NCBI RefSeq assembly: GCF_001949145.1
Contig: NW_019091360.1
Coordinates: forward strand, 554,137 to 617,791
Length of the DNA: 63,655 nt
Reading direction: 5' to 3'
From: Acanthaster planci
Lineage: Eukaryota
In this document: one piece after another, positions 1 through 21,584 of the stretch
How positions within the stretch are numbered: the first letter of the stretch is position 1
How the letters are laid out: the number at the start of each line of letters is the position of its first letter
Translations under genes and position numbers: made by a program
Notes under the pieces: model-generated
What the model was told of the DNA's origin: nothing
The model's database searches: none
The model's input: the letters and a program-made list of their open reading frames with translations, nothing else

Positions 1-159
1 GTAACACGCACCAGTCTGAACAATTAACTGCGGGAAGCTCGATGAGCAATGCTAAACTATAAGGTGATACGGGGCACCAGACAAGTTGCTGACTAAACTA
101 AGGAAGCTTGTAAAAGAAAAAGTGTCATGTAAAAAAAAAATTCAAATCTCCCTTCCACA
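1..159 (-). repeat. 3' LTR of the Gypsy element (partial)
   Basis: Near-identical to 5525-5681; starts with TG on the minus strand directly after the PPT-like tract. Confidence 0.8.
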
Positions 160-251
160 CTCGCCACCACTTAAAATCCTTGTTGTCCTCAACAAGGGAA
201 ACTTAAATACATGAAATGCACCATCTAACCTAAGTTATTACAGTATAATAC

Positions 252-3200: not shown

Positions 3201-4132
3201 ATAATTGACACAGAGCCTGATTTTACCGTCCTTCTTTCATACGATTACAAGGGGGGGGTGTATAAGGGCTCTGACTCGGCTGTATCACTCCCGATATGCC
3301 TTCAGCTTATCTATATGCTGTCGGACTTCTTGGAATTGCCCTGGTGGGACCCTGCGGTATGGCAGCCTGAAGGGAATATTATCAATCGGGGTATTTCATG
3401 TTCTACCGTCTCAGTGTAGCCCAGGTCTTGATCATCTCAGAAAAAACATCCTTGTTTTTGGAGAGTAGCTGGAAAACCTGTTCTGCCTGCTTGTCTGTCA
3501 GGTTCTCATAGTTGACATCAATCTCTGGGACTTGGGGTTCCACCGTCGACTGGTTACATACAGCTGAGTGGGTGTTGCAGTTCGATTGGGTTTCTTTGTC
3601 TGCTTCAACTCTGCCAATTTCCTTGCCTACAGACAGGGTACCCAAGCAGGTATTTGGCCTCAAAATGAATTCACGTGGAGAGAGGTTGCATACTCAAACA
3701 GTGGTCATTCCCTTTTAACCTCCGAAAAAGTTCTACCAACGACCAGATTCTCCTCAAAGGTTGCATTGGCTGGCTCCACAAGTGTGTAGAAAGTCTTTCC
3801 ATGTGTTCATCTTGGGGCTTGTGTTGGCACATCTACCTCCGCACCGGGCTTTATCACCAACCTTCTCTTGCTGGCATACTTAAGTGGGCCAATTTCACCA
3901 TCCCTGTTTGCAAAGTCAGTCCCATCACTGTTGACACACTGGAAGGCATTAATCCAGGGGTCAGAACGTCGTCTGGTCCTGGCCATAAACCACCGGCCAT
4001 ATCTTTGATGCAGTCTATCACGTAAGGCCACGATGACATTGGTTCCCAAAAGAACAGGGGTGGATTGTCGAAAGTCTGTGGTAGGCACCACAAAGGCAGG
4101 CACATCACAGATTGTCTGACCCAAAACAACAA
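252..4132 (-). pseudogene. pol: Gypsy pol polyprotein, multiply frameshifted (protease region, reverse transcriptase, RNase H, integrase)
   Basis: RT: DAFPLPRVEDALD, LDLTS, RMPFGL, LLYLDDIII. RNase H: VQTDAS, PIAYAS, TDNKPL, YRPG..NGNADALSR. Integrase: HDSIGHLG/CRRC zinc motif, LVCIDF, LHSDQG, AYN..HESTGY.PF. These are split over many ORFs in different frames. Confidence 0.92.
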
Positions 4133-5524
4133 ANNNNNNNNNNNNNNNNNNNNNNNNNNNNNNNNNNNNNNNNNNNNNNNNNNNNNNNNNNNNNNNNNNN
4201 NNNNNNNNNNNNNNNNNNNNNNNNNNNNNNNNNNNNNNNNNNNNNNNNNNNNNNNNNNNNNNNNNNNNNNNNNNNNNNNNNNNNNNNNNNNNNNNNNNNN
4301 NNNNNNNNNNNNNNNNNNNNNNNNNNNNNNNNNNNNNNNNNNNNNNNNNNNNNNNNNNNNNNNNNNNNNNNNNNNNNNNNNNNNNNNNNNNNNNNNNNNN
4401 NNNNNNNNNNNNNNNNNNNNNNNNNNNNNNNNNNNNNNNNNNNNNNNNNNNNNNNNNNNNNNNNNNNNNNNNNNNNNNNNNNNNNNNNNNNNNNNNNNNN
4501 NNNNNNNNNNNNNNNNNNNNNNNNNNNNNNNNNNNNNNNNNNNNNNNNNNNNNNNNNNNNNNNNNNNNNNNNNNNNNNNNNNNNNNNNNNNNNNNNNNNN
4601 NNNNNNNNNNNNNNNNNNNNNNNNNNNNNNNNNNNNNNNNNNNNNNNNNNNNNNNNNNNNNNNNNNNNNNNNNNNNNNNNNNNNNNNNNNNNNNNNNNNN
4701 NNNNNNNNNNNNNNNNNNNNNNNNNNNNNNNNNNNNNNNNNNNNNNNNNNNNNNNNNNNNNNNNNNNNNNNNNNNNNNNNNNNNNNTCCTTATTCGGAAA
4801 AGATCTTTAGAAGTGAATGGAATCATCACATTGTCATTTGTCAAAAAACAGCTTTTGCATGTCCTGTGCAACCCATTTGATGGGCGACGCACGACGGGCG
4901 ACGCATGACGGCAGATATGGAATTCCATACTATAAACTACAGTGCAGACTGTGTGAGTCTAATCCTTTGTTCTGCACCACATGGTCTAAAGCTGAATTCC
5001 TTCACAGCTTTTACACATTAGAAATACAGTTAGTTAACTGTAACTGTTAGACCACTCTACATCTTAATTTAGTATCACAGTGCTAGGAATTCTAGTCAAG
5101 GAACACTTGTAAGAGCAGAGATAAATCTATTAATAGTATGGAGGATCATCTAATGGTGGGCTCTGAACATGACTTTCTTTATACAAGATTAAAAGAAAAT
5201 CACATTAGAATTACATTTTAGTCTGAATGACGAAGTAAAACTTCTAATGGTGTTTCCAAGACAAAACAAAGGGTGCGAAATGGAAGAAACTTACAGAAGA
5301 CTATGCCAAACAGCCGTGCTCCGTCACAACCTTCCCCGCATCAGAAACTTCAAAAGAACCTTTGCCAAAATTACAAACTAACTAGTTTGACACTAAAACT
5401 ACTGACTTACAATACAAATAGCAAATTACGGCAAACTCACCCCAGCTGCAACTGGTGACAAGAGCAGAAAAGTGCAAATGTGGGAAGGCTGAAGAGAGCT
5501 GTGAGTGGTAATGCTCACTCTTCA

Positions 5525-5681
5525 GTAACATGCACCAGTCTGAACAATTAACTGCAGGAAGCTCGATGAGCAATGCTAAACTATAAGGTGGTACGGGGTA
5601 CCAGACAAGTTGCTGACTAAACTAAGAAAGCTTGTAAAAGAAAAATTGTCATGTAAAAAACATTCAAATCTCCCTTCCACA
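5525..5681 (-). repeat. 5' LTR of the Gypsy element (part matching the 3' LTR; true LTR likely extends further left)
   Basis: Direct repeat of 1-159, ending ...CCCTTCCACA at 5681. Confidence 0.75.
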
Positions 5682-6135
5682 CACAGATACTGAAAGAGTG
5701 CTTAGCATGGTCTTCTCGTGAGAGAGATTTGTGAGAGATTTGATTAGTATTTACATGGAAGAGAGCTGATCACTGTAAACATCGACTACAAGCCGTTGGT
5801 GCCAATCTTCAAAAATCGATACATAAAGCTCTTAAAAGGCTCAAATGCATGCTTCTGAGGTTACAGAAGTATGACATGAGCGTACAGTACCTGCCGGGAA
5901 GCCAGATGTAAATAGTTGACACGCTGAGCAGAGCTCACCCACAGACCATCCACTAGATACACTTGTCAGAGTACCACATGCTTCAGCAGAAGCAGGAAGA
6001 GCGGCTCATGGCAACGGTTGAAATCATCAGCTATATCTTTGAATAAAGGATAGCACACAGCTGCAGATCTAGAAGTCCACGGAGACTGATCCGGTTCTAC
6101 AAATGTTAAAGTATGTAGTGCTTGAATGATGGCCA
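5682..6135 (+). pseudogene. Fragment of a second Gypsy pol (RNase H C-terminus and linker), interrupted by the first element
   Basis: Reads ...DYKPLVPIF..., MLLRLQKYDMSVQYLPGSQM*IVDTLSRA, the typical Gypsy RNase H end. It starts right at the LTR edge. Confidence 0.7.
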
Positions 6136-7952
6136 AAACAGACAACCTTTAACCTTTACATACAAAAGTTAACATTCAGATCTTTGGTCTTGAGCCACAC
6201 TGCAGATTAACAGGTGTATTCTCGGTAGATTTTCCTGCTGCAAGGTCTTCCTTCCGTAACAAGTTCCTGAACAAGGAACAAAAAGAGCCGATGATGTTGT
6301 ATGATTTAGCCCTGTCAATTTGGATGCTGAATATTTCAGTTTTTGTCTGGCCAATAGCAATGCTTTACCATGAATTACGTTTCAGTGTCAATACTGGGAC
6401 AACTAATTCAAAGTACTCTAGTTTGGAATTTTTTACAATATTTACAATTTATTTACCAAATTTAAGAGTTTTTTCTCCTCTAAAGTCTTTGTCTCAGATT
6501 ACTTCTTCCTAGACAAAAGTCCTTGTCTTACAAAGATGAAAAACTAAATGAATTCACTGTAAAAGAAAAATAAAAATTAAAAGAAAAAAAGATTATAAGG
6601 GCCTTTTCCCGTTCCCTTCTTGCCGTACAGGCTGAGTTCCAGAGTATGGTTGTTTCTTTCTTTAAGTTAAACGTTTTATCTTTGATCTCTGTTCTTTAAA
6701 GTTACATGTGCAAGATACAAAAGTTAACATTCTGATCTTTGGCCTTAAGTCACACTCCAGATTAACTGATGTATTCTCGGTAGATTTTCCTTCTGCAAGG
6801 GCTTCCTCCAGCCATTTGATGACTTGGGCCTACATCTGTGCCAGATGGTTTTCAGCGACTGCAGTCAACAAGTTTTTTCTATCTTTTGGACCTTGCGGAC
6901 ATCTAAATAATGTATAATAAAATTCAAACTTTCCAAAATATCTGTCTTGTGATCAATTTGATTACTAGAGCAACAGATACAGTAGATCATTATACTTTGG
7001 ATATATTCTCAAAATTGGCTCAATTGTTTAAAATCTGCTTGTTAGAGGAATGCATACGTTTGAAGACTTAGTGCATTTCAAACAATCTAAGGCTTGTTTC
7101 TCCTTAGAAATTTTGTACCAGGTAATTAGCTTGGGCTTGTAAACAAATTAAATCTTTTCGAAAAAGTTAAAACTTACGATTTTTCTTCAGGTGTTTCTTT
7201 CAGGTTGAGTCTTCCCTGCCACCAAACTCCCGACGAGTGTTAATGTAGTTTTGCCCAAAAGGTAAAACTTTGGCATGCCTGCCCTGACCACTTATGTCAA
7301 GCTTTTATCAGTTTAATGCATACGGCTCCAACACGAGATAATTGTGGTGTTTCTATCATATAGCCGGCACTTCGCCTGTGACAAAGCATTGCCATTGGCG
7401 AACCAAAAACAATTAAATAACAATTCGCTGTAACAGGAAAAAAAGGTCACGGGGCGTGCGCAAAAAAGCCAATCACAATGCAAAGCCATCAGCCCTTCCC
7501 GCAGCCCCAGCACCTTGGTGGGGGGCGCTGGGCGACGAGCGGAGGGTGCACTGCCTGCATCATTACAGCCTGATAAAATTGTAGCGCCGGCGGGTCCGGC
7601 CGGTGGGGGCGCCAGCTCGGACCCGCATGGAGTTGGCTGGCTGCCACGCTCGTTGCGTTGCGAACGGCCCGCTGTTTTCCCGCCTAGCGTCTGCGCAGTC
7701 CCTGCCGCCAGGCGCCATGTTGAGAGTAGAGCTTGTCGGAAGAGCACATTGCAGTGTACGCAATAGCAATAAAGCAGAGATTTTGTGACCAGAACAGTGA
7801 GTTGCACCTGAGTGTCGTTCTTCACAGCGTCGAACCCTGTTCAGCGGGACACGCTACATAATTTATCCTCGACTCCATGGGCTGCGAGCGCGTTCCTTCA
7901 CGAGCCCTGGCCGTATACGTAGGATTCGAAAATAACGCTGATTGGCTGTTCA

Positions 7953-8097
7953 AGTAGTTGAGAGCGGTACGCACAAGACCCACCCCACCTTCAATCATCG
8001 TCCCCCAGTTTAGCACAAAATACCAAAACTAAACCACGGCAAAATCGAAACCCTCCAAACCCCTGCGACCAACTTTTAAAAATTTTTATAAAGCCAT
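7953..8097 (+). repeat. Left terminal inverted repeat
   Basis: AGTAGTTGAGAGCGGTACGCAC...CCACCTTCAATCATCGTCCCC...AAAGCCAT is the reverse complement of 19170-19310, with scattered mismatches. Confidence 0.93.
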
Positions 8098-8152
8098 TCC
8101 ACCCTCGGTAATCCGAGAATATCTAAAACCATCTCGCTCTTATAAAACCCAC

Positions 8153-8246
8153 GTTTCGATTTTGCCGTGACTTAGTTTCTGATTACCGCGAAAAGGGACG
8201 ATGATTGAAGGTGGGGCGTGTCTATTGCGTAACGCTCTCAACTACT
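8153..8246 (-). repeat. Internal inverted copy of the terminal ~95 bp of the TIR
   Basis: GTTTCGATTTTGCCGTG...GGGACGATGATTGAAGGTGGGG...GCTCTCAACTACT is complementary to 7953-8051 and is a direct repeat of the element's right end. Confidence 0.88.
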
Positions 8247-8332
8247 AAGGTTACAAAAGAGACGATGCTTTTGGTCTGGAATTACCGAGTAAAAATGAGA
8301 CAAATCTATGCCAAAGCCGGAAAAATCAGAAC

Positions 8333-9082
8333 ATGTCAATCCAAGTATACATCGTTTCAGACGACCACGAGCATCTCAATGCCGACAACTGTGACCCCAA
8401 CGTCACCTATGGCCCTTTTGACCCGAGTAAATTAATCATTTCAAAACCCGTGATTAAAGAAGGCACCCATGTGAGTCAATGCAGTTCGCCCATTTTTACC
8501 ATCACAACGGCCAAAATAAATTGATTATGACGATAGAATCCTGTTACGGCATAAACCAGCTTTACAAATATGGCACTCGAGATAAAACGCCAGAAAATTT
8601 AGTGGGTCGGCAAATTTGCTATCAAATACAACAACCTACGACAAACATACTCGATCACATAAATTTGGCCGTTTATAGGTTTATCGAATCTCAAGAGTCT
8701 AATCTCCCGTCTAATATCGTAAACGCCTGCAAAGCCAGTCGTGATATCAATGAATTGAACAAGATCGAATATGAAGTTAAATCACCTTACACGGCTAAAA
8801 ACCAAATGTATGTTAAAAAAGATCCCTATGCCTCTCTATTTGATCACCAAAAAAAGACCCATCGACTCGTCAAATATCGATAAATTTATCAATAAGAGAT
8901 GCGACGCGCAATCATTTATTTGTCCAAAAGACATATACTACGGTACCCACGGTTTGTTGTCTTGCGGCGCCAGCGTTCGGTATAGAGTGACAGCAGCAAT
9001 GTTGAAAATTAGAAACGACGGACTAATTTCAAAGAATTCGGCGTTGCAAGCGTTTAGCATATCTGAATCTTCCGTGGAATAA
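8333..9082 (+). pseudogene. Candidate ssDNA-binding protein of large-DNA-virus type (DUF2738-like), two frameshifts
   Basis: ORFs 8333, 8479 and 8771 join into ~250 aa: FDPSKLIISKP...LIMTIESCYGI...LVGRQICY...IYYGTHG...GASVRYRV. From memory this resembles iridovirus-type DUF2738 proteins; not verified by search. Confidence 0.45.
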
Positions 9083-9142
9083 GAAGTCGATTCAATTACA
9101 AATGAATTGAATTTTAATTTCTTGTGTAATAAAAGTCGACTT

Positions 9143-9180
9143 AACCTCTGTTATTCTTCGGAATAACTGGGGTTGTTTTT
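9143..9180 (+). terminator. Stem-loop with a cTTCGg tetraloop and T-tract downstream of the first viral ORF
   Basis: AACCTCTGTTATTC-TTCG-GAATAACTGGGGTT followed by GTTTTT, in the intergenic gap. Confidence 0.45.
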
Positions 9181-9223
9181 ACGTCAGTCTTTCCTTAAAT
9201 AAATAAACAACATATAAATAACA

Positions 9224-9672
9224 ATGACATACGCAGAGATTTGCCACCTACTCGGTTACCAGAAAAAACGTGCGAACACGACATATTTGAAATAGGCGAA
9301 AGCTATGTATGCCGACATTGCGGTCTAATTTTTGAGTGGGTTCCTTCATACACCCCTGAAGAGATAGGATACAGATATTACTATCATCAAGTTTGGAAAA
9401 AACCCTCCACGAAAATCAGAGAAGATTTTGAGAGAAATAAACATTGAATTGCCCAGTGAACAATCGAGCATAGAATACGTGTTAAATCGAGTTTTAGATG
9501 GTAAGATATCTAGAGGTAGACCGTTGAAGGCTTTAATTGCGGTATGTTATCAAAAGGCAACCGGGGAGGACGATTTAAAAGTAAAGGATTTGTTTCAAGT
9601 TTCGGATAAGTATTGGAAAACGCCCTCGACAAATTAAACCTAGCCAAACAAGATTTTTCAAAACGTATATAA
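9224..9672 (+). pseudogene. TFIIB-like protein (Zn ribbon plus one cyclin-like repeat), frameshifted
   Basis: CEH-x9-VCRHCGL zinc ribbon followed by a helical region with ISRGRPLKALIAVCY (compare the TFIIB RGR...IAAACLY motif). Spread over ORFs 9241 and 9428. Confidence 0.65.
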
Positions 9673-9739
9673 TAGAATAGAGACTCACGCATTTTACTTG
9701 ACCAAAAGCGAGCAGGCGTTTATAAGGCAATAAATAAAT

Positions 9740-10243
9740 AAAAGTCAGAAAAGTAAGCTTTCTCCTCGGTTACTTTAACATTACAAAATCCACCGAAATC
9801 GAATGGCAAAGTCAAATGGAAGGAAGCCCCGCAAAAAGAGCTCCCGATGGAGTTAGACCAGCAATACAGGCTGACTCACTAATATGTTATTAACACGGAT
9901 ATTATAGAAGCACTTGAACTGATAGTACCGTTTTCAGATTTGCAGATGGATACTTTGGTTCTGTTTTACGACGTAATAAGAAACTACATTCGAGCTTACG
10001 AGGCGGGTACTTTAGAAGAATTCCGTGTCTCAATTAGTCAAAATAGGCCTTGAGAATCAAATCAGAACGTTAACAAATAAACGTCCGGGATCAGACAACA
10101 AGACAGAAAACGCGTTAATTTATTTAATACTTTTAACTCGAGGTCAAGTCGATACTTACAAAGAAGCTCGCCACATTGCTTTAGAATTTTTTCAAGAGCG
10201 ATTTTTAGGCGACGAAGGGGTTTTCCAACGTGGATTGGTTTGA
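9740..10243 (+). pseudogene. Unidentified viral ORF remnants
   Basis: Coding-like stretches (IIEALELIVPFSDLQMDTLVLFYDVIRNYIRAY; ORF 10025) between the TFIIB-like and penton-like genes. No motif recognised. Confidence 0.3.
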
Positions 10244-10887
10244 TTTTATCTTAACCGCCATTCCGGGTGTGAGTTTTAAAGTTCACGAAAAGTCAAATTT
10301 GGTAACGATAATGATAACTGATTCAAATCTCAGATTAAAGTTGGGTAAAGAGGTCGGCAAACTTTTAAATCTGCCAAGAGGTAGACTCGTGCCAAACGTG
10401 ATTTATAAGGGGAAGATAGATATAAATCCTTTTGACAAGCTTTGGATACACTGCCGAGAAATAAACGACAATTTTAACGACCTTAGTACGCGTTGTGTAC
10501 CGCGCCAGACTTGAGCAAAAGCGTTAAAGGGTGACTTTGTCTATTACCAACCACAGCCTTAAGTTGCGGCTAAATAAGCAACTGGCTAACTTATTAGATC
10601 TGCCAAAGGTTAAACGTTTACCCCTTGTCATTTATGAAGGCAAGTGTGATTTAAACCCCTAGAAATTTGTGTTTGTACATTGCGCCCAGTTGAATACCGG
10701 TATCAATTTTTATAACGGCAAATCTTCGGATATGTTGAGCGTTTTCGATGCCAATCATAAAGATAAAACGCCCAAAAGTTTAAGTGACAGAAACATCAGT
10801 GAATTGACCTTTTCTTTAAAAGACAAGGGAGGAGAACTAGTAGACAACAAAGGCGCTGAAATTTTAATCGGGCTAGACATTTTTTAA
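10200..10887 (+). pseudogene. Minor capsid protein (penton-like single jelly roll), disrupted
   Basis: FVHCAQL...NFYNGKSSDML...ISELTFSLKDKGGELVDNKGAEILIGLDIF* matches the typical C-terminal strands of Polinton/PLV minor capsid proteins. Confidence 0.65.
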
Positions 10888-10907
10888 AACGCGTATATAA
10901 TAAAAAG

Positions 10908-11562
10908 ATGACTACTAACATTTACCCAGATTTGACTTTAAACTCGGTCGAACAATCAGAAACCAAAGTCTACAGACTCAGAAAAATCGAAGAAATCAAA
11001 TCTCAAATCCAAAGAGAACGCGACGCGCGGGAAACTAGCTACAAGAAGATCAAACGGGTACTCACCGCACTCGGCTACGTGGAGTACGGGGTAGAAGTGC
11101 TGGGCGCGACCTCGGCAGCCGTCGGCGTTTCCGCAATTTTAGGCGTCGTGACCGGGCCTGTCGGACTTGTAATGGAAGGCATCGCTTTCGGTGCGTTTGG
11201 TGCCTACGCAGCGCTAAAGTACGCCACTCGCCGTTTAACTCACAAAACAAAAAAGCACGATCAAATCCGCGTACTTGCCGATGCTAAATTAAACACGATC
11301 GAGGAATACGTATCTCACGCAATTGAAGACGGTGACATATAGCAAGAGGAATTTGTGTTGATCTTATCTGAACTAAAAAAGATTAACGAAATGAAAGAAA
11401 AGATCAGATCGAGTACGTCTACAAAACTGCAAGCGAGCGAAGCGAGCTCGACGAATAAAGAAAAAGAAATTCAAATGTCAAGTAAACGAGAGAGCAGAAG
11501 CGCTAGCCAACGAACATGCGACGGTTTTTAAAAAAGATCTTATGAAAAAACTTGGCGAGTAA
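10908..11562 (+). pseudogene. Coiled-coil protein with a long Gly/Ala-rich hydrophobic hairpin (membrane-active candidate); in-frame stop at 11340
   Basis: YRLRKIEEIKSQIQRERDARE, then a ~55-aa hydrophobic segment (VLGATSAAVGVSAILGVVTGPVGLVMEGIAFGAFGAYAAL), then KKHDQIRVLADAKLNTI. The frame continues past the stop (QEEFVLILSEL). Confidence 0.6.
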
Positions 11563-11674
11563 GTTTAACCAAGTCGGTTAAGTACGAAGTGAGCAAAGCG
11601 AGCGAGCCACCTGCTTATCAAGCAACCCAACCAACGGTACCTCCTTTAAAATAAAATAAAGACGTTTAAAATAA

Positions 11675-12955
11675 ATGGGAGCCAACTTTAGTCATTTATC
11701 AATCGTAGTCGATAAGGACAACTCGCCGAGTTTCCAAATTTAATGCACGCGTATAAATTACCAAAAGTCACCACGGCAAAGCCGTCAACCGCTGGGTTAC
11801 CGATCCAATTTCGATTTAATTTTGCGGTCTATTGCGCGACGACGGCTTGTGGTGTGGGTTTTGATTTGCTGTCTGATCCCAATCCACACGTGTCGGCTTT
11901 ATTCAATTTTCACGTATATTATACCGTACAAAAATGCCCAATTCCGAGCGACAACGTATTTGACGCGTTACACAATTATTACGATCATCGGAAGTTTACA
12001 GACACTTGTCGTCTATTTAACGTCGATTCAAACAAGTTGTTTAAACAAACTCGTGACACTTTGTCAAACGGATTAGGCACTGCTTATTATTACGACAACG
12101 GTTACGTATCTGTCCCTAATAAAAATTATGATGCATACGACTTACACCTCTCCAACGGCAAATACGCGGGATCTACTTACATGGGCTTTGGCTGGGCTAA
12201 ACCACCTAAAGGCTTGGGTCATGCGAGTACTTACACGGTCAATTGGATTTCACAGTCGGACGCGGCCACTTTGGCCTGGTGGGATTTCATCCTAAAAAGA
12301 GTAGCTCGACGGACGTGGGGATCACCAAGGTAAACGAATCCATTAGGGCTTACGGATACGAGTTACACGGTGCACAAGCTCAAACCAAGACCAGCGTTTT
12401 GGACACCGGCACCGGATTAGACGCGCAACGGCAATTTATTACGATCGTGGAATCTTTAATTAATTCAGCCCCCGATCTCGAACAGTCGATATATCAATTT
12501 CAAGATTCGTTGCTATATGCCAAAATGCCTTTAGACTTTGTAGTCGCCCCGGGGTTATATTTGGTGCCCTCGGATATGGACTTACGCATCGGTACGTATG
12601 AAGGTTACAACAGTAATGTACAAATCACGACTGCGGATATGACGACTGGTTACGTACCGAATTTAAATTTAAGGCCAGGGGTTAAGATGATTTTGCGGGT
12701 GAAGCAAGCGAAGCGAGCAAACCAAAGCAACCAGAACTTTCACCCACTCAACCAAAGCAACCAGAACTTTTACCCACTCAACCAAAGCAACCAGAACGTT
12801 TACCCACTCAACCAAAGCAACCAGAACTTTTACCCACTCAACCAAAGCAACCGGTACCAGATAAAAAACCATTAGACATACATAACGAAGAGAAGTTATC
12901 TTTAATTATAGGAGCTATCACCATAGGTGTCCTCCTGTATAAAGTATTAACTTAG
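11675..12955 (+). pseudogene. Predicted myristoylated, C-terminally anchored viral protein with a Pro-rich repeat stalk; frameshifted
   Basis: Starts MGANFS (MGxxxS). Core has NFAVYCATTACGV, FHVYY, INESIR-like, GAQAQT, PSDMDLRIG. After a frameshift it reads (QPKQPELLPT)n and a terminal TM LSLIIGAITIGVLLY before TAG. Confidence 0.6.
12719..12853 (+). repeat. 30-bp coding tandem repeat, ~4.5 copies
   Basis: Unit AACCAAAGCAACCAGAACTTTTACCCACTC; encodes QPKQPELLPT in the frame that runs into the TM tail. Confidence 0.9.
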
Positions 12956-12985
12956 AATAGACGAAAAAGTAAAAGGCATTAAAAA

Positions 12986-13017
12986 AACGCTTGTTCTCCA
13001 CGTGGAAAACAAGCGTT
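12986..13017. terminator. Palindrome at the convergence of the plus- and minus-strand gene blocks
   Basis: AACGCTTGTTCTCCACGTGGAAAACAAGCGTT, one mismatch, lying between stops at 12955 (+) and ~13034 (-). Confidence 0.5.
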
Positions 13018-13033
13018 GAAATTTTTTTGCCTA

Positions 13034-13473
13034 TTATAAAACGGGTTTACGTTTTTCGTATAAAAGGCAAACTACATAACCGACCACTAAAAATAAAGTC
13101 CACAGGTGATCCGCTATCCATCCAACCGCTTTACTCACCACGTTAAATATCCAACTCAAAACGCCACCGATGATTCCAGGCAATTCAAATAAAAAATATT
13201 TGGGTCTTTAATTTCTGTTTCGTAATCAGTTTCGTTGTACCGCTTTTCGATCTCTAAACCACCATATATTTCTTCTTCTTCGTTTGTCCCAACGGTAATA
13301 GGATGTGCAAAATCAGGGTCTTCTAACAACGACGTTTCATTTTGGTCAGTACAGGACGTTTCTGTTTAGGTCGGATTAAGTATTAAGTCTTCCCAAGCCA
13401 ATTTCAAGTCTTGATCGGTTTCTTCTTTGTTCTCTAGTGGTATTTCCCAAAAATCAAATCCTCCTTCGGCCAT
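13034..13473 (-). pseudogene. Viral protein with acidic N-terminus and C-terminal amphipathic/TM helices, disrupted
   Basis: MAEGGFDFWEIPLENKEETD... then LPGIIGGVLSWIFNVVSKAVGWIADHLWTLFLVVGYVVCLL. Confidence 0.55.
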
Positions 13474-13521
13474 TTTACTTTAACTTTAAAATAAACGATT
13501 AAAAAACCAACTTTACGGTTT

Positions 13522-13766
13522 TTAAGTGGTTGGTAGACTCGGGGAAAATATCCCTTGTGACACGAGCCTACCCTGGGTAGCTAACGCACCGCTAGACAGG
13601 GCGGTCAATTGTAACGCGTCTTCGATTGCAAATTTATTGAAATCTGGCGGTTTGATTTGAGCTTACTCGACAACATCGCGTAACCCATACAAAATCCTTA
13701 AAGTACAGCACCGTGATAAACCGTATTGGCGATTCCATTTAGGTCGATTGATTTAGTGTTACTCAT
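13522..13766 (-). pseudogene. Small hydrophobic viral protein, frameshifted
   Basis: MSNTKSIDLNGIANTVYHGAV ... IKPPDFNKFAIEDALQLTALSSGALATQGRLVSQGIF; preceded by TTAAAAATG. Confidence 0.45.
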
Positions 13767-13790
13767 TTTTAATATATAGTATCTTTAAAT

Positions 13791-14164
13791 TTATTCCATA
13801 TCTAAAACTTCAGGTGTTTGTTTTTTTGGTTGAACAGTTTGTAAAGGTGTTGCTTGAACTTTTATAGGCGTCGATTTATTTTTCCACATTAAATATAACG
13901 CGACTGCACCAATCGCTAAACCGCCCAGGATTAAATTTCTATTTTCGGTGACCGTTTCCTAAATTTTATTTCCAGAGCTAGCTTCGCTCACTTTTAATTT
14001 CGCGAGTTGCTGCTTCATCTTTCTGTTATGCTTGGCTAGTTTCTTACCCTGTTCTATGCGTTTTGGATTTTTAACTTTAGTTACTGTTGCACCTGTGTCT
14101 TTACCGGGCTGTTCGTCGGCGTTGATGCTGGGATTGCTTTGCTCGCTTCTTCTGTTGTCGACAT
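13791..14164 (-). pseudogene. Basic coiled-coil protein with one TM helix, one in-frame stop
   Basis: KNPKRIEQGKKLAKHNRKMK followed by LILGGLAIGAVALYLMW. Confidence 0.55.
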
Positions 14165-14199
14165 CTTTTATAATAGAAACGTTTTATTTATCGATAGAT

Positions 14200-14643
14200 G
14201 CTTAGTTGTAATTGGCGTGGCTACCAAGGGCGATAAATAGACCCCGTATTTATAGCAAATCTCGCTTAGGAAATGACTCATTGTTTGACTTATAATCGGA
14301 TCGTTATTTAGATTTTTTGTCAAATCTTCTTCGGAATTCAAATTGATATTAAACCCGAGGAGTTCGACTGGAGTGGCAATGCCTAGTAAACGTGCGTATA
14401 AGCTTAGAATCGCATGGCCAAGTGTATTTACAATTTCTCTGCCGAAGTGTGCTTCATACAGGTTAAAAGCTTTTCTTGATCTTTTGGAGTTAGGGCTTCA
14501 ATTTCTTTTACAGAATATTCTTTACTCAGGCATTTTTTAGATTCCCAAGATGCCACTATTGAGCACAAGCGATCTCTTACATTGGGTTTATTTTCGGTCG
14601 ATTCTGTTTTTGGCTCGTTGAGAATTGATTTAAAATCTTCCAT
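14200..14643 (-). pseudogene. Helical viral protein of unknown function, frameshifted
   Basis: ORF 14428-14643 continues in another frame as YEAHFGREIVNTLGHAILSLY...DLTKNLNNDPII...ICYKYGVYL. Confidence 0.5.
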
Positions 14644-14866
14644 TTAAATATATGGTTTTTAAAATTGTTGAACGTATGTTTACAGTATAAATATTTAAAC
14701 CTGTAATAAGTTAGATTAGCTGCGATAACTAGTTGGATAACTAATTGAACTAATTGTAACATTGCTTCTATTTAATTATAACAAAAATAAATAAAAACAG
14801 CTATAGCCAGACTGTAACAACAAAGCTATAGCAAATGAAACAAATAAATAACTAGTTAACATTAGC

Positions 14867-15520
14867 TTATACGTCTGTTGACTCGGGTATCATATTGCAC
14901 TTACGCATTAGGTTACACCTACAGCAAGCCAACACGCAATTCCATTTCACGTGCCCAAAACCCGTGGGTAATCTTTCGATCGTTGCCTGGTCTTGTCTTG
15001 GCTCGATATATTACAGTTTTACGTTGCAGTCGTTGTAATAACAAAACTCATGAGCGTCAACCATTTCTCGGGGATGAATAAGTTATATTTCTTATCACAT
15101 TGTTTAGAAGTATACAACCAACGATCAAAAACAAATTTTGCTGCGATATCTTTGCTTTTTATGAGGGCAAACGCCTGAACCGTTACACTGAACACAATAA
15201 TATCTTTGCTTACCGTGAATACACATCCCAGCACCATTACACTGAACACAATAATATCTTTGCTTACCGTGAATACATATCCCAAAACCATTACAATCAA
15301 CACAAAAATATCTTTGCTTACCGTGGATACATATCCCAGAACCATTACATTCGACGCGTGCATTTTTTAGTTTACCATGAATGCATTTACGCCGATTATT
15401 AGAAATTTTTGCTGCGGCGTTATAACTGATACATCCAGCGCAGATTTTACCACTGTCTGTAACTTTGAACGAATCCAATCCATTTAATTTATGGCAGCGA
15501 TTACACGTTTTATTCTCCAT
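14867..15520 (-). pseudogene. Cys/His repeat protein fused to an HNH (His-Me finger) endonuclease domain, frameshifted
   Basis: Four to five 18-aa repeats CIHGKQRYYCVQCNGxGI (54-bp tandem at ~15140-15390). After a frameshift: CYYNDCNVKL...ATIERL..GFGHVKWNCVLACCRCNLMRK. Confidence 0.7.
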
Positions 15521-15555
15521 TTAAATTAATATTACATTAATGCATTTTATCATTT

Positions 15556-16185
15556 TTACCGAATGACATAATTCACCGGCGGCTCAGTATAAAAAAAATC
15601 AATTTACTGAACTTCACGTCTCGAAATGCTTTTTAATTTCTTCCCTTTTTTCATCAGGTACGACATCGTTTTCGGTTAAACACTGGTCAAAGCTGTTACG
15701 ATCTTTCCAATGAAACAAAGCGGTCCACGCCGTATTTTCGCGGTAGTCTTTGAGAACCAAATTATATATCTGAGTTAATAGCCAACAACTATGATTATAA
15801 TGACGCCCTAAAAACGCCATCTTACTTAATGCGCATACATTGCTCCCTTTAGATCTTTTAAGATACTTAATAATTTGATCTGAAGCACAGTCGTCGATAA
15901 TAAATAACGTATTTACACCGTCAAATTATTTTTGATAAGGTTCAATCGCTTTGTTTCATTATAGTCGTTCCCGATCTAAATCGCATGGAAAAACGTCGTC
16001 GTCTGTGTAAATCCATAGTCAGTCCAAATAAGTTTTATTTTAGACAACATGGGACAAATAATTACGATAGCTTCAAATGTGAACCTATATTCGGTTTCTA
16101 GAAGATCTAATATCCAATTAGTTTTCCCGCTGCCCGTCTTACCGATGATTAAAGCGCAGTGTGGCTTCTTGTACATCTGGTTCAT
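15556..16185 (-). pseudogene. A32-like (FtsK-HerA superfamily) genome-packaging ATPase, disrupted
   Basis: Walker A LIIGKTGSGKT, Walker B LFIIDD (~15890-15910), arginine-finger motif GRH and LLTQ. Confidence 0.88.
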
Positions 16186-16199
16186 TTAATTTAAACGCT

Positions 16200-17454
16200 T
16201 CTTAATAAACCCGTAGACTTTAAAATTTCCGTCTTCTACAGTCAATTGAGCTAAAAATAAAAATAAAAAAAATACGTACATCATCAACGGACCCGCGGTC
16301 TCTGCTTCGCGTTCCATCTGTATCAAAATACCTCCTCCGCCCCGAGCGGCCTACCCGAGCCATGAGCAGATTTATCGTCAGAGCTCCTGAAATCGAGCCA
16401 CAGACCATACTTATCTTTTAGACATTCGGCCATATCAACCCCCGTTAAATTTAGATCTTTTGCAACTGCGCGAGCCGATTTGGTGTCCGAGTCGCCGAGG
16501 TATTTGTTGACTTCGTTCCAGTGTTGGTATTCAAATAGCCCTTGTGAGTAGAGCTGGATGGGTTTGCCTTCGACCGTGACGACCGTTTTAGTTATATTTC
16601 GTTGCAGATTTTTGACCGCGGGATCTTTGAACAAAATCAAAACGCCTTTCAAACTCTTGATCGTTTGGTCGATGCTGATGTTCCATAACGTGTCTGACTT
16701 ATTAACCGCCTGTTTTTTCCAAGAATGAATTCTGTTAAATAAGTAATAGACGGGGCCTCTATGTTTGGCCTGCAGGGCCTGCGCCAAATCTCGATTGGTG
16801 ACGACTTCATATTCTAAAGTCAAATCCGAAATTGAGTACTCCGCAGCCTTGTCTGACGAGTTAACCATTTGATTGTGCCCGTTAAACGTTAACTGGTACG
16901 TCAGAGGCTCTTTAAAATCCGACGGATCGAAAGGCCCATTATCCGTATCTAAAGGAATCGCATATCGATTTTTAAAAGTGTCGGCGATCGCCTTATCTTT
17001 ACCGTTGTTCGCGGCTTCGTTTTTATCGCCCGCGTTCAAACGTAACTTAGTGACGTTTTCTCTTTCTTAACTAAAATAAGCCATATTTTTCGTCTACGAC
17101 AGAGGTAGCCAATTGCCCTTAAAGTTATGAAACACGTCCGCGTCTCGGTAACTGACAATTTTATTGCCTTGTAAGCTTACATTGATTTCTGAAAGCAGGT
17201 TTCGCGCTACGTTGTTATACACGGTACGGTTATCGTCGGATGCACCGTCTAGATCGAGTTGAAAGCCAGTTTCGCGGTACCCGGCATGATGACGTCATCC
17301 ATGCCTAAAGCGGGGAATTTTATGTTTAACGTGTGACCCACAGCTATGGTGCTCGGTTATGGGTGACAGTTACTTCGCGTCTTTTGCCCTTAATCACGCG
17401 AGGTACTTTGAGCCTGCGACTCAGGTTTATTTTTTTCGTGTATTGTTGCGACAA
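16200..17454 (-). pseudogene. Major capsid protein (double jelly roll, Polinton-like virus type), disrupted
   Basis: ~410 codons adjacent to the ATPase. Beta-rich motifs: VTVTHNP.TI, IKFP.L..DDVIMPGTAKLAF, RYAIPLD, YSISDLTLEYE, SLKGVLILF, VTVEGKP.QLYSQG, YGLWLDFRS...HGSGR. Fold assignment rests on size, context and recalled similarity. Confidence 0.75.
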
Positions 17455-17483
17455 ATTTCTTAATATGTACGATTTATGTTTTA

Positions 17484-17633
17484 CGTAAAAATTTTAAAGA
17501 GAAAAGAAAACGCAATAAAGGGTATGCTGGCTGCGAAAAATAGATCTTCATTATTTTGCTATCTAAACGTTTCACTCTGGTGAACGTGACCGGCTTGAAT
17601 TTCTACCAGTTGATTTTTAATTTCGGTATTCAT
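17484..17633 (-). pseudogene. Tiny ORF remnant with a C-terminal hydrophobic segment
   Basis: MNTEIKNQLVEIQ...LFFAASIPFIAFSFLF; divergent from the ORF at 17658 across a 24-bp pure A/T spacer. Confidence 0.3.
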
Positions 17634-17657
17634 ATTTTTAAATTATATATTTTAAAA

Positions 17658-18084
17658 ATGGCTAGTATTGCAATGATGGTTGGAGGAGCTAAAGTAAACG
17701 CCCTGGCATTTACGGGCTAGATTTTTTTATTTGGCAGTTTATCAAAAAGTAAAGTCGACGAAGAATGAAAGCGTCAAGATCCTGGCGATAGAGCAATTGG
17801 TGCAGGCAAAACAAGAGTGGGAGCAAAACCGCGTTCATATGTTAGATTTTTTAAACGAGCAAATGCGACAAGAACGCACGAGTCAGCAAACATTTGTAAA
17901 CGTGGACGAAGCGTTACGAGCTTAGAGCGAATTAACCGGTAAAAAAAAATAATGCCGCTGCCGCCAGAGCCTAAAATACTCGATTTTTACGCACCTTCGA
18001 TCCGAGGATCAAAAAATTCGCAAATTTATATGGATTATATCCGGGACGGCTTTAGTCGGTTTCTTATCTTATCGATTTGCGTAA
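17658..18084 (+). pseudogene. Viral protein with N-terminal hydrophobic helix, coiled coil and C-terminal TM; disrupted
   Basis: MASIAMMVGGAKVNALAFTG ... LAIEQLVQAKQEWEQNR ... PPEPKILDFY ... IWIISGTALVGFLSYRFA*. Confidence 0.55.
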
Positions 18085-18096
18085 CTTTATTTTAAA

Positions 18097-19110
18097 ATGG
18101 AGCGAGAATTTTCAAAATTATTTTACAGCTCACAGGGTTATTGGCGGGGTGAAAGTTCGGTCGATCATCTACACGTAAAGACGGGTGCAGGCAAATCAGT
18201 TATTAGAAACTGGCTAAAAAAGCAAGCCGTTTGGCAAATATATTTACCCGCACCTGCGTACGTACCGCGACCAATGACTTTGCAATCGGAATCGGTCGAA
18301 CCTAATTATGCGCATCAAATAGATATATTATATTTACCCTGGGATTATGTTGAAAGAAAAACGTTTAAACACGCTTAGACCGTGGTAGACGTAGGTTCGC
18401 GATATAAAGAGGCAGAACCGTTGACCAGCAAAACCGCCGAGCAAATGTCTGAAGCCGTGAAACAGATTTATAAAAGATTGCCCTTCACTTGGCGCAAAAT
18501 TATAATGGTAGACTCTTGATCTTTATTTAAAGGTGAGTTTAAAAAATTAATGACGAAAAATATAGAGTAGAAATTCAAGTGGGTGAGCCGGGCGTTCATA
18601 GGTCGTAGGGAATCGTGGAAAGGTTTAACCGTACTTTGGCTGAAAGGTTATTCGGTCATTAATACGCTCAAGAAATGTTAAATGTGGATGAGCGAAACGT
18701 AGAATGGGTAGAACGTTTGCCTCAAGTTGTAAAATCGTTAAACGACGAAAAAACGCGTTCAATCGACAAAGAGCCCGCAAAAGCTATCAAATTAGACCGA
18801 GTGAAGCAAACACCTAGTGCACCTCCCAGAGTTGGCAAGCGAGAATTACCGCCAAGCGTGGTCGTTCGGTACCTCTGTTACGTACCCGGGTGAGCAAGAG
18901 GGTGGAACCGTCAGAAGAGTGACCGATCCAATTTGGTCCGTGGACGTTTATCAAATTGAAAAACGCACGAAGCAATTTAAACGAGTAAATGGCAGGCGGA
19001 TAAAAACGGGTCCTACTTTATATTATTTATTAAACGGGCCAAATAGAAGTTTCGTCAAAGAGGAACTTCAAGTCGAACCCGAGGATACAGAATTACCGCC
19101 CGAGTCTTAA
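18097..19110 (+). pseudogene. Retroviral-like (rve, DDE) integrase of Polinton type, with stops and frameshifts
   Basis: HQIDILYL (D), TVVDVGSRY, IMVDS..FKGEF (D), GIVERFNRTL (E), W...LP.VV..LN, and C-terminal PIWSVDVY / YYL / RSFVKEELQ. Confidence 0.92.
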
Positions 19111-19169
19111 CTGCGCAAAAACCGAATTGAGGACTTTTTCTTTGTCTTAAAAAATTGAGTTGTTCACCC

Positions 19170-19310
19170 ATGGCTTTAAAAAATTTTTAAAAGTGGGTCG
19201 CAGGGGTTTGGAGTGTTTCGATTTTCCGGTTTAGTTTTGGTATTTTGTGCTAAACTTGGGGACGATGATTGAAGGTGGGGTGGGTCTAGTGCGTACCGCT
19301 CTGAACTACT
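19170..19310 (-). repeat. Right terminal inverted repeat
   Basis: Reverse complement of 7953-8097; ends GAACTACT and is followed by GTTCA. Confidence 0.93.
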
Positions 19311-21584
19311 GTTCAGGGGGCGTTTTCGAAACCCCAGTCTCCCGGGACTCACGAACAGTGTTCTTGGGTCGTTGATTACGAATGCTTAAGTGCAAATGGG
19401 GTGCAGCTGCGTTGAAAGTCAAGATAGCAGTCGCCATTTTAACACTAAATGAAAAGATGGCATGACATTTACCATCCCACATTAAATAAAATTCCTAAAT
19501 GTCCATATTAATGGTCAGGGTAAATTTTCTCCGACAGCCATGAGTATTTGCCTTGGGTTCAAGTTTATTTTTCTTTGTGAGTGTTTCCTATTTTATCTAA
19601 CAAAACCACCATTAACTTACGGTATGTGCCTATATCCACCATCTTTGTTCTTGATGTTCTTCATCCACTCCCCAGAAAGTGGGGAGTGAGAATCAAAGAT
19701 CTCATAGCGCTGTACAATCTTTGGTGAGAATCTTGTTCAGGAACAATGTTCGCGTGTTGATCCCCTTTTGAAACCCCGTTCTTGTGTTCGTCAAACACAA
19801 GAATGGCGTAAATCTGCGTCGCTCGAGCTCGTTAAAACGCTGACTAAAGTCCTTATTTATTATCCACCCCGAGCTGAAGTGCACCCCCAATCGGCGAAAG
19901 TAGGACAGGTGGTTATAAGCGGGTTCTTGCACGCGTTCTGCACGTACGCAGAGACCATACATGCCGAAATAAATTAGTTACGCGTACTCATCGTGCTCCG
20001 CATCAAACTCGCATATACTTCCGCGCCTGATGTCGCGCCTTACCAAAATCACGCCCTCTTTTGTTCCCCTCGGAGCAGGTGCAATATGGGGGGGGGGTGC
20101 GTTCCATCAAATGGTTGTATTGCTGCGCGCGAGCTCCTAATATTTTTTGATCCCACGGTGTTTTACAATAAGACATGCCATAACCAGGAGGCATCATAGA
20201 AATATTTCTATGAATCACGAATTTTGGACTGACAGATTCCAGTTGGAGGTATTTCTTTCGCCAAAAGCCCCAAATAGCAGGCCTATTTTGGATAGAGGCG
20301 GGCGGCTACATTTAGAAATGAGCGCTTAGTTTTATGCTGTTTGGGGTATCTTCCTTGAAAGGCGAATAAAAAAGATTTTCGTGGCTAAGCCCAATAAAAT
20401 TGAAACGAAGAGTGATCTTCTGGCCATAATCTTGAATTTCCAGTAAAAAAAAAACGGAGGCAAATTTCTTCACGAGAGTCACCAAGCGACGCTATTTTGG
20501 TCCGATTTGGCACTGGCGCGTATTTGGTTTAATGCACCTGGGCCGTTTTCCAATACTCAATCCGTCTCAGTCGCAGGCTTCGTTCCCAAAACCAATTCCC
20601 CATTGTGGGCCTGAAGCGTTTAAATTACATTGAATTGCTGTAATTTTTGGCTCTCTTTCATCTTAGTTGATGCTTTGTGGCACTATTAGACTAATAACTG
20701 AGCTTACAGCTTTAAAGTCATCTAGTAAAAAACAGTTGAAGCCGGAGCCGAAAGTGAATATTGGAAGACGACCCTGGGGTTAATCGCGCAAGGCATGGTA
20801 GGAACAAACATGGCGTGCCGAGATCATTCCCATGGAAACGAGGTTGGGCTAGGGTTTTTTTTACCGTGGGGACGAGGTTTTTCAAGGATACCATTGATTT
20901 CCCTATTAAAATATATGGGCTTGTTTCTGCACACCAGTTAAATCAGTGATACTGACTTGTACCCAGAGACAATCTGCCGTCAATGGGCCGTCTCTTACGC
21001 GCGTGTGAACAGCAAGTACAAACTCTGGGAACGCGTACGATCAATACATGGATGTTTCACACATGCAAAGTACATGTACATGTAGTACAATAGTCCTGGG
21101 CAAGTTACTAGGCCAGGAGTAAAGTGACCCCGTGACGTTTTGCGAATCATCGCGGCACGAAAGTGGTGAACTACCATGTAGACCGACGTTACCGACATGT
21201 GTCCTTAAAGTGTTGTAACTTTCTTCAACAAGGCTATTCAAAATCAAGTGTAAGAAATGCTGATTAATCATACCTAGTTTTGATGGAGGCAAAATGAAAC
21301 TTTGGCCATGAGTTTGTTGGTTGTATTCTTAAGGCTTTAGTTTACGCTACCATATCCATGGTATGTGGGCCGGCTTTTTAACTAACGTAGTACTGGCATG
21401 ACTGGGTCATGCTAATCATGCTAATCGTCAACGAGCGTAAACAAAGCGTTAACAAATTATTCAAGCATTTGTGTGAAGAAATGTGGTATTTTTTAATATG
21501 ATGAGGCTCCTGAATATCCTATTCAATATATCACATTTATCTCAAGTAATGTTTGAATGTGGAAAGTAAGCCGACAAAGTAGGT

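What the first reader, a model, noticed from the sequence alone, without database searches (positions are those of the whole stretch)
7953..19310. Complete integrated Polinton-like virus with capsid, packaging and integrase genes but no DNA polymerase or protease
Seen: both TIRs and the TSD are present, so the boundaries are intact. About 15 tightly packed intronless genes fill the 11.4 kb, including MCP-, penton-, A32 ATPase- and rve integrase-like genes. No gap could hold a ~1000-aa pPolB, and I find no pPolB, helicase or adenain motifs. Known: canonical Polintons/Mavericks are defined by pPolB plus integrase and usually carry a cysteine protease. Inference: this is a distinct, replication-dependent class of animal endogenous DNA virus that can package and integrate itself but borrows replication from the host or a helper virus, like a provirophage.
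Basis: partly seen in the sequence, partly recalled or inferred. Interest (0 to 1): 0.93.

Follow-up and report, generated by a model that had tools for sequence, protein, structure and literature searches.

The report
Decayed polymerase-less Nematostella-type Polinton copy
This is a broken, inherited copy of a virus-like jumping element, likely of a kind already known from sea anemones, that still shows its capsid, packaging and integrase genes and has no DNA polymerase, most likely because that gene was deleted rather than because it is a new class of helper-dependent virus.

Summary
The boundaries are real: 142-bp inverted repeats with AGTAGT ends and a 5-bp target duplication. Capsid (family folds as a double jelly roll), A32 ATPase and rve integrase remnants are confirmed, and no polymerase, helicase or adenain trace was found. 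But the element is not complete: every core gene compared with a homologue is broken, one gene lacks about 300 codons, and the penton-like region is scrambled. Capsid and ATPase motifs match the Polinton-3_NV/Polinton-N1_NV clade, already published as protease-less, so the missing protease is a family trait. In 9 of 9 related loci that extend past a whole integrase, a ~1,200-aa replicase (pPolB or SF1-helicase type) sits tail to tail with it; here the terminal repeat begins 59 bp after the integrase stop. Best reading: a fossil deletion derivative (0.6). Not excluded: the element's own subclade, for which no full-length copy could be obtained, may lack a replicase. It carries extras absent from the fetched relatives: a DUF2738/DUF5871-family gene (likely giant-virus-type ssDNA-binding protein) and a 294-nt terminal hairpin.

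The parts
7948..7952 (.). Left target-site duplication GTTCA
7953..8097 (+). Left terminal inverted repeat, starts AGTAGT
7953..8246 (.). 294-nt terminal palindrome: inner arm 8153-8246 is an 80% identical inverted copy of 7953-8051; predicted DNA hairpin, z -16.5
   Evidence: several diverged contigs span 7972-8224
8331..9082 (+). Broken gene (3 frame segments) homologous to P0122, a DUF2738/DUF5871-family protein; likely NCLDV-type ssDNA-binding protein (function of the family recalled)
9220..9730 (+). Broken gene with an N-terminal Cys/His zinc-ribbon-like motif; TFIIB/VLTF3-like by eye only, no library hit
9726..10887 (+). Scrambled penton-like region: profile positions 25-54 at 9726-9815 (weak), 64-157 at 10212-10478, 83-226 at 10495-10881; about 400 bp unassigned between
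10908..11550 (+). Conserved gene with a hydrophobic hairpin and coiled coils (resembles the recalled 'GasderminX' type; not tested); one stop in the aligned part
11716..12955 (+). Conserved family 'X' gene (about 430 aa in relatives, invariant Cys/His), in 3 frame segments, with a 30-bp tandem repeat near the end; function not found
13040..13480 (-). Family 'Y' gene remnant: acidic start and conserved hydrophobic end kept, about 300 codons of the middle absent compared with relatives
13525..14771 (-). Three small conserved genes (c, b, a) that follow the ATPase in relatives; broken
14870..15520 (-). Zinc-finger-repeat plus HNH endonuclease gene remnant inserted behind the ATPase; not a helicase remnant
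15610..16185 (-). A32-type packaging ATPase pseudogene
16207..17454 (-). [quoted passage not shown]
17658..18086 (+). Conserved small gene 'd' that precedes the integrase in relatives; broken
18097..19110 (+). rve integrase pseudogene
19111..19169 (.). 59-bp spacer at the place where relatives carry a 3.5-kb replicase gene; inferred deletion junction
19170..19310 (-). Right terminal inverted repeat; matches the left end only up to the centre of the left palindrome
19311..19315 (.). Right target-site duplication GTTCA

Best explanation
This is a dead, inherited copy of an integrating virus-like element, likely of the Polinton-3_NV/N1_NV kind, whose genes are broken and whose replicase gene was likely removed by an internal deletion. 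The parent would have been a linear element of about 15 kb that copied itself from its ends with a pPolB or pPolB-SF1-helicase protein, coated the displaced strand with its predicted ssDNA-binding protein, built a protease-free capsid from MCP, penton and A32 ATPase, and inserted with its rve integrase (5-bp duplication, shown). Deletions then likely removed the replicase, most simply between the integrase stop (19110) and the right repeat, which ends at the tip of the terminal hairpin, and two thirds of gene Y; point mutations broke the rest (shown). Whether the loss came before or after this insertion is not known.
For: All core genes compared are broken. 17 of 82 fetched loci hit the integrase profile; 7 end inside it, 1 ends 48 bp after it, and 9 of the remaining 9 have a replicase tail to tail with it (5 pPolB, 4 SF1-type; two pairs are near-identical, so about 7 independent); Pfam confirms pPolB in L001, L004, L030 and SF1-type AAA domains in L010, L033. 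2 of the 8 longest loci tested have terminal repeats and both carry pPolB. The d-integrase pair has the same order here, and 11.4 kb plus 3.6 kb gives about 15 kb, near L001 (14.5 kb) and the 14.4-16.6 kb of the Nematostella elements. Gene Y has lost about 300 codons and the penton region is scrambled, so deletions have hit this copy. Sister copies in four runs show 494 joints, 15 listed, all skips. The hairpin-to-first-gene junction is at about 1-2 copy depth while the gene behind it is far deeper, and one contig has 1,159 other letters upstream of 8328. 96% of vertebrate Maverick loci are such fossils (PMC8097293).
Against: No full-length sister copy was seen. The replicase-bearing loci are only 28-43% identical in MCP (L071 and L082 not measured) and lie outside the element's own clade (10 rows, 100/100), none of which has usable context; gene order also differs, so the slot argument is indirect. 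Both gene-to-terminus junctions are tidy. A second, diverged contig also spans the hairpin-to-gene junction, so the left-end layout is not unique to this copy. Polinton-N1_NV appears in the published MCP and ATPase alignments but not the polymerase ones, so a replicase-less family of this clade may exist. The 19110-19170 junction was not among the rows shown.
Confidence: 0.6

Rival explanations
1. A non-autonomous subfamily: the replicase was lost once, and the shortened element, still making capsid and integrase, was then copied in trans by autonomous sister elements in the same genome before it decayed.
For: Target duplication intact; termini occur with different flanks (4 contigs with unlike sequence before 7953 in two of four runs); a second diverged contig shares the left junction; Polinton-N1_NV elements have MCP, penton and ATPase, no protease and are absent from the published polymerase alignment; 'N' for non-autonomous is a recalled Repbase convention.
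Against: The left junction is at only about 1-2 copy depth; no second copy of the right junction was shown; N1_NV elements are 14-15 kb, the size of loci here that carry an SF1-type replicase (L010), so they may not lack one.
Confidence: 0.2
2. A natural replicase-less lineage that depended on a giant virus or the host for DNA synthesis (provirophage-like); its giant-virus-type accessory genes would serve replication in a helper's factory.
For: DUF2738/DUF5871-family gene whose Atlas neighbours are Nucleocytoviricota proteins, absent from all 82 loci; zinc-ribbon and zinc-finger-HNH genes; terminal hairpin; a precedent in VC40, 15-20 kb genomes without detectable replication genes (10.64898/2026.06.19.733378); the PgVV-group relative Gezel-14T needs a giant virus (PMC10120064).
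Against: All informative relatives have a replicase; an ssDNA-binding protein fits strand-displacement synthesis by the element's own polymerase at least as well (established for adenoviruses and tectiviruses, recalled); no intact copy, no particles, no helper known; nothing found in IMG/VR in 6 scans.
Confidence: 0.13
3. A chimera of two related elements: a deletion between nested or tandem copies joined the left arm (hairpin, DUF2738-like, zinc-ribbon, part of one penton) of one to the capsid-integrase arm of another, dropping the replicase between them.
For: Two overlapping, non-identical penton segments in tandem (profile 64-157 then 83-226) with no DNA similarity to each other; the left-arm genes have no hit in any of 82 loci; such accretion and deletion is proposed for anemone elements (10.64898/2026.10.13.758929).
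Against: The two TIRs are 96% identical over aligned bases, as expected for one element; two penton genes occur naturally in some PLVs.
Confidence: 0.07

Closest known systems
Polinton-3_NV and Polinton-N1/N1A/N1B_NV of Nematostella vectensis (PMC4028283 passages and supplements 1 and 4; PMC4642659 passages and supplement 3 search; PMC11296320 one passage)
   Same: Capsid and ATPase motifs, PLV-type (non-Mavpol) MCP, no adenain, animal host, TIRs; Polinton-3_NV pairs this capsid with pDNAP and RVE as L001 and L004 do; N1_NV is absent from the published polymerase alignment.
   Different: This copy is 11.4 kb against 14.4-16.6 kb, is pseudogenised, and has a DUF2738-like gene, an HNH gene and a terminal hairpin; the gene content of N1_NV beyond MCP, penton, ATPase and protease could not be seen.
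Canonical Polintons/Mavericks/adintoviruses (Polintoviricetes; PMC8502044 parts 1-3 of 6, PMC8097293 passages, 10.64898/2026.06.19.733378 sections 5-7)
   Same: TIRs, target duplication, rve integrase, DJR capsid, A32 ATPase, animal germline fossils.
   Different: No pPolB, no adenain, 5-bp not 6-bp duplication, MCP only about 10% identical to adintovirus/MELD entries in the structure search.
Polinton-like viruses (Aquintoviricetes) and Tlr1 (PMC4642659, PMC11071308, PMC5499653; passages)
   Same: Minimal morphogenetic module without protease; relatives swap pPolB for an SF1-helicase fusion with a C-terminal HNH domain; Tlr1 also has RVE.
   Different: PLVs and Tlr1 keep some replicase; this copy has none. 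Most PLVs are protist viruses.
Provirophages (mavirus) and VC40 Zephyrviruses (PMC11071308 passages; 10.64898/2026.06.19.733378 section 6)
   Same: Integration by rve (mavirus); absence of detectable replication genes (VC40).
   Different: Mavirus has its own pPolB and protease; VC40 are metagenomic, with no endogenous examples and no integrase listed; no helper is known here.

Membership tests
Polinton/Maverick (canonical) | [quoted passage not shown] | tested here: not met
   No hit of a 6-sequence pPolB profile in six frames, no motifs, no room
Polinton/Maverick (canonical) | rve integrase | tested here: met
   Pseudogene
Polinton/Maverick (canonical) | TIRs and target-site duplication (6 bp in vertebrate Mavericks) | tested here: met
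   142-bp TIRs; duplication is 5 bp
Polinton/Maverick (canonical) | Adenain-type protease | tested here: not met
   No Pfam hit in the element or in 12 ORFs of TIR-bounded L001; recalled motif scan blank, without a positive control; family X has invariant Cys/His and no assigned function
Polinton/Maverick (canonical) | MCP of the Mavpol1/Mavpol2 clusters | tested here: inconclusive
   About 10% identity to adintovirus/MELD entries in BFVD; three family motifs absent from the stored, cut supplement of PMC8502044; no reference sequences for a tree
Polinton-3_NV / N1_NV clade | MCP of the P3_NV type | tested here: met
   Seven short motifs read off the published P3_NV row occur in 36-66 of 71 homologues; 5 of 7 in the window's main frame. 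Motifs were chosen by eye with both sets in view; no score, no joint tree
Polinton-3_NV / N1_NV clade | ATPase of the 3_NV/N1_NV type | tested here: met
   4 of 4 short motifs present; same caveat
Polinton-3_NV / N1_NV clade | No protease | tested here: met
   Table S1
Polinton-like viruses (Aquintoviricetes) | DJR MCP, penton and A32 ATPase without protease | tested here: met
   MCP fold shown on homologue P0001; penton not fold-tested
Polinton-like viruses (Aquintoviricetes) | A replicase (pPolB, pPolB-SF1, PolA-SF3 or AEP-SF3) | tested here: not met
   PolA/AEP/SF3 tested by Pfam only
Provirophage | Reactivation by, and dependence on, a giant virus | not testable with these tools
   No intact copy or helper identified
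Non-autonomous Polinton subfamily | Several independent insertions with the same replicase-less structure | tested here: inconclusive
   Short-read contigs only; no genome held

The most novel reading that the evidence does not exclude
The element's own capsid subclade is a lineage of animal Polinton-like viruses that never needed its own replicase: it keeps capsid, packaging ATPase and integrase, carries giant-virus-type ssDNA-binding and transcription-factor-like genes and a hairpin end, and was copied by a helper (a giant virus of the animal, or an autonomous sister element), which would make it the fossil of an animal provirophage or satellite.
Probability: 0.2. Interest if true: 0.75.

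Novelty: new member of a known kind. Interest (0 to 1): 0.3.

Why it matters
As a deletion derivative it is ordinary: most animal Polinton loci are fossils. What it adds is modest: the Nematostella-type, protease-less clade is widespread (142 capsid homologues, 82 loci), swaps pPolB for an SF1-helicase fusion in one genomic slot, and has a subclade with a DUF2738/DUF5871-family gene. I found no paper with both 'DUF2738' and 'SSB', none on this among the 15 of 91 listed, and 'SSB' does not occur in two recent overviews. If the subclade proved replicase-less, it would be a first candidate for a virophage-like or satellite life style in an animal germline.

Tried and rejected
No host genome is held, so sister copies could be seen only as short-read contigs. 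Six IMG/VR scans (MCP piece, MCP alignment, TIR pattern, P0122, integrase alignment, family X alignment) found nothing. Weak hits of SF1 replicases to 14888-15028 looked like a helicase remnant; they come from the C-terminal HNH domain and map to a separate zinc-finger-HNH gene: rejected. The left 294 bp as a separately inserted mini-element: it has no duplication of its own and diverged copies share the inner arm: not favoured. 8530-9082 as a polymerase fragment: rejected, it is DUF2738/DUF5871-like. Single-sequence fold of P0122 failed (pLDDT 32) and was not searched. Word-based search with the 117-aa piece, Atlas search with it and PDB searches with the MCP, penton and X profiles, P0122 and the zinc-ribbon pieces gave nothing useful. 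TFIIB/VLTF3 identity of 9220-9730 is unconfirmed. tblastx hits outside the element are short sum-statistic noise. Depth figures from contigs are not copy numbers and were used only as rough contrasts. Two papers were not held, so 'DUF2738 is an SSB family' and the Repbase meaning of 'N' are recalled. The supplement of PMC8502044 is cut in storage and bioRxiv supplements are closed; they may hold closer references. Earlier-finding look-ups by place and sequence were blank.
Full report
Boundaries. The element runs from 7953 to 19310. Its terminal inverted repeats align over 145 columns with 136 identities, 5 mismatches and 3 gaps, start with AGTAGT, and are flanked by a 5-bp duplication, GTTCA. 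The right repeat matches the left end only to 8097, the centre of that palindrome. Contigs of other runs reproduce parts of this locus with 0-1 differences (for example 8022-8371 and 14387-15048), so those parts are not assembly errors and the insertion is inherited. The host DNA holds an intron-rich gene with AWS and SET exons, consistent with an animal; the taxon was not determined.

Genes. A capsid search returned 142 homologues, 120 listed. The nearest full-length one, P0001 (57% identical), folded with 71 aligned homologues at pLDDT 89.8 and matched iridovirus, PBCV-1 and virophage double-jelly-roll capsids (E to 4e-17). The ATPase hits Pox_A32 and the integrase hits rve. Against intact homologues every core gene tested is broken: MCP in 4 frame segments with 2-3 stops, integrase in 3 segments with at least 5 stops, ATPase in 2 segments with 5 stops, and breaks in X, d, a, b and the gene at 10908. 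Gene Y is about 146 codons against 441-468 aa in the 6 relatives printed, keeping only its two ends. The penton-like profile hits three places, two of them overlapping in the profile. So the copy cannot make a capsid or an integrase; 'complete' is wrong.

No replicase. A profile of 6 related pPolBs gave no hit in six frames; a profile of 4 SF1-type replicases hit only its terminal HNH domain (iE 0.019); the integrase profile, as control, hit at iE 3.5e-53. The HNH hit belongs to a separate zinc-finger-repeat HNH gene at 14870-15520. The largest unassigned stretch is 478 bp. No adenain was found by Pfam or by a recalled motif that had no positive control; family X, with invariant Cys and His residues, has no assigned function. 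The left arm holds a gene homologous over most of its length to P0122 (E 6e-20), whose Atlas neighbours by features and structure are DUF2738/DUF5871 proteins of Nucleocytoviricota. That this family is the T7 gp2.5-like ssDNA-binding protein of giant viruses is recalled; PMC11253617 (passages) confirms only that such SSBs exist in four NCLDV families. No locus of the 82 has this gene.

Relatives. 82 loci were fetched with the capsid alignment: the best 80 of 134 from metagenomes and 2 from genome bins. They share the capsid, ATPase, X, Y, a, b, c, d and integrase families. 17 hit the integrase profile; 7 end inside the gene, 1 ends 48 bp after it, and all 9 others carry a replicase on the opposite strand abutting the integrase stop: pPolB in L001, L004, L012, L026, L044 and SF1-type in L010, L032, L033, L052 (L032/L033 and L004/L044 are near-identical pairs). 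Six more loci have a replicase without an integrase hit. Of the 8 longest loci tested, 2 have terminal repeats and both have pPolB. In the window the same d-integrase pair is followed after 59 bp by the terminal repeat. The limit of this argument: in a tree of 38 capsid rows (the window, 14 of the fetched proteins, 23 loci) the window lies in a clade of 10 rows (100/100) that contains no locus long enough to show a replicase, and the capsid block is inverted relative to L001.

Sister copies. 18 of 24 listed runs hold 57-69% of the sampled words. Laying four runs on the whole element placed 5,379-6,344 contigs each, most 85-95% alike, with 494 joints of which the 15 shown are all skips: a large decayed family with many internal deletions. 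On the left end, diverged contigs span the palindrome, 4 contigs in two runs have other flanks before 7953, the stretch 8233-8286 is at about one to two times single-locus depth while 8340-8460 is about a hundred times deeper, one contig carries 1,159 other letters upstream of 8328, and one diverged contig also spans the hairpin-to-gene junction. These short contigs cannot show whether any copy has a replicase, and depth is no copy number.

What is known. Krupovic 2014 (PMC4028283; passages, supplements 1 and 4) prints the Polinton-3_NV capsid and lists Polinton-3_NV and N1/N1A/N1B_NV as protease-negative, 14.4-16.6 kb. Short motifs read off that row occur in 36-66 of 71 homologues and 5 of 7 in the window's main frame; 4 of 4 ATPase motifs from Yutin 2015 occur in the window (PMC4642659; passages and supplement search). 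The motifs were chosen by eye, so this is a strong resemblance and not a scored placement. Yutin 2015 calls these anemone elements possible chimeras of a PLV-type capsid with pDNAP and RVE and notes that PLVs lack the protease; in its supplement Polinton-3_NV is in the capsid, ATPase and polymerase alignments and N1_NV only in the first two. PMC11296320 (one passage) and PMC10120064 (passages, section 9) place the cnidarian capsids outside the Maverick-Polinton cluster. 10.64898/2026.06.19.733378 (sections 5-7) reports frequent replicase swaps, animal PLVs in octocorals, hydrozoans and bivalves, and VC40 without replication genes. 10.64898/2026.10.13.758929 (sections 10 part 1 and 13) proposes deletion between tandem elements. 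PMC8097293 (passages) finds 96% of vertebrate loci degraded. Also read: PMC8502044 (parts 1-3 of 6), PMC11131425 (sections 6, 8, passages), PMC11071308, PMC10328495, PMC5499653, PMC11414722, PMC3014272 (passages).

How it likely worked. Shown: integration with a 5-bp duplication; the gene remnants; the decay. Inferred: a parent of about 15 kb with a replicase next to the integrase, strand-displacement synthesis from the ends helped by the ssDNA-binding protein, a protease-free capsid, and later deletions, one of which may have started at the tip of the terminal hairpin and taken the inner arm and the replicase from the right end. I give this 0.6; an amplified non-autonomous subfamily 0.2; a natural helper-dependent lineage 0.13; a chimera of two elements 0.07. 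Three earlier AI notes on other genomes describe similar polymerase-less derivatives; they are unchecked and were not counted as evidence.

Verdict. The missing protease is a known trait of the clade, the missing polymerase is most simply a deletion in a fossil, and a polymerase-less relative may already be catalogued. Interest 0.3; the open, more novel case (replicase-less subclade with giant-virus-type accessory genes) has probability about 0.2 and would merit 0.75.

Noticed in passing
L030:1-13235: TIR-bounded relative with pPolB and a full capsid module but no integrase hit: the opposite loss to this window.
   Followed up: partly
L010, L032, L033, L052 against L001, L004, L012, L026, L044: Near-syntenic elements swap pPolB for an SF1-helicase-type replicase ending in an HNH domain, in the same slot tail to tail with the integrase.
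   Followed up: partly
window 7953-19310: CpG observed/expected is 1.41 in the element and 0.42 in the host DNA to its right.
   Followed up: no
window 7400-7952 and 19311-19900: Both flanks are high-depth repeats; 56 contigs begin near 7867 and 65-71 near 19861, so the element seems to sit inside or among other repeats.
   Followed up: partly
window 36808-56234: Intron-rich SETD2-like host gene with AWS and SET exons; SETD2 label from recalled motifs.
   Followed up: partly
window 1-5660: Decayed LTR retrotransposon: reverse-transcriptase-like ORFs at 2324-3236 and a 136-bp direct repeat at 1-136 and 5525-5660.
   Followed up: no
window 26252-27332 and 45500-46589: Two MITE-like elements of about 1.1 kb with inverted arms of about 375 bp.
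   Followed up: no
L022:1-206: Terminal region of a relative made of tandem and inverted 35-bp units; L001 and L030 also have palindromes inside their termini.
   Followed up: no
P0057, P0081, P0086; L081, L082: Capsid genes of this animal virus family are filed in bacterial or archaeal genome bins, likely as host contamination.
   Followed up: no
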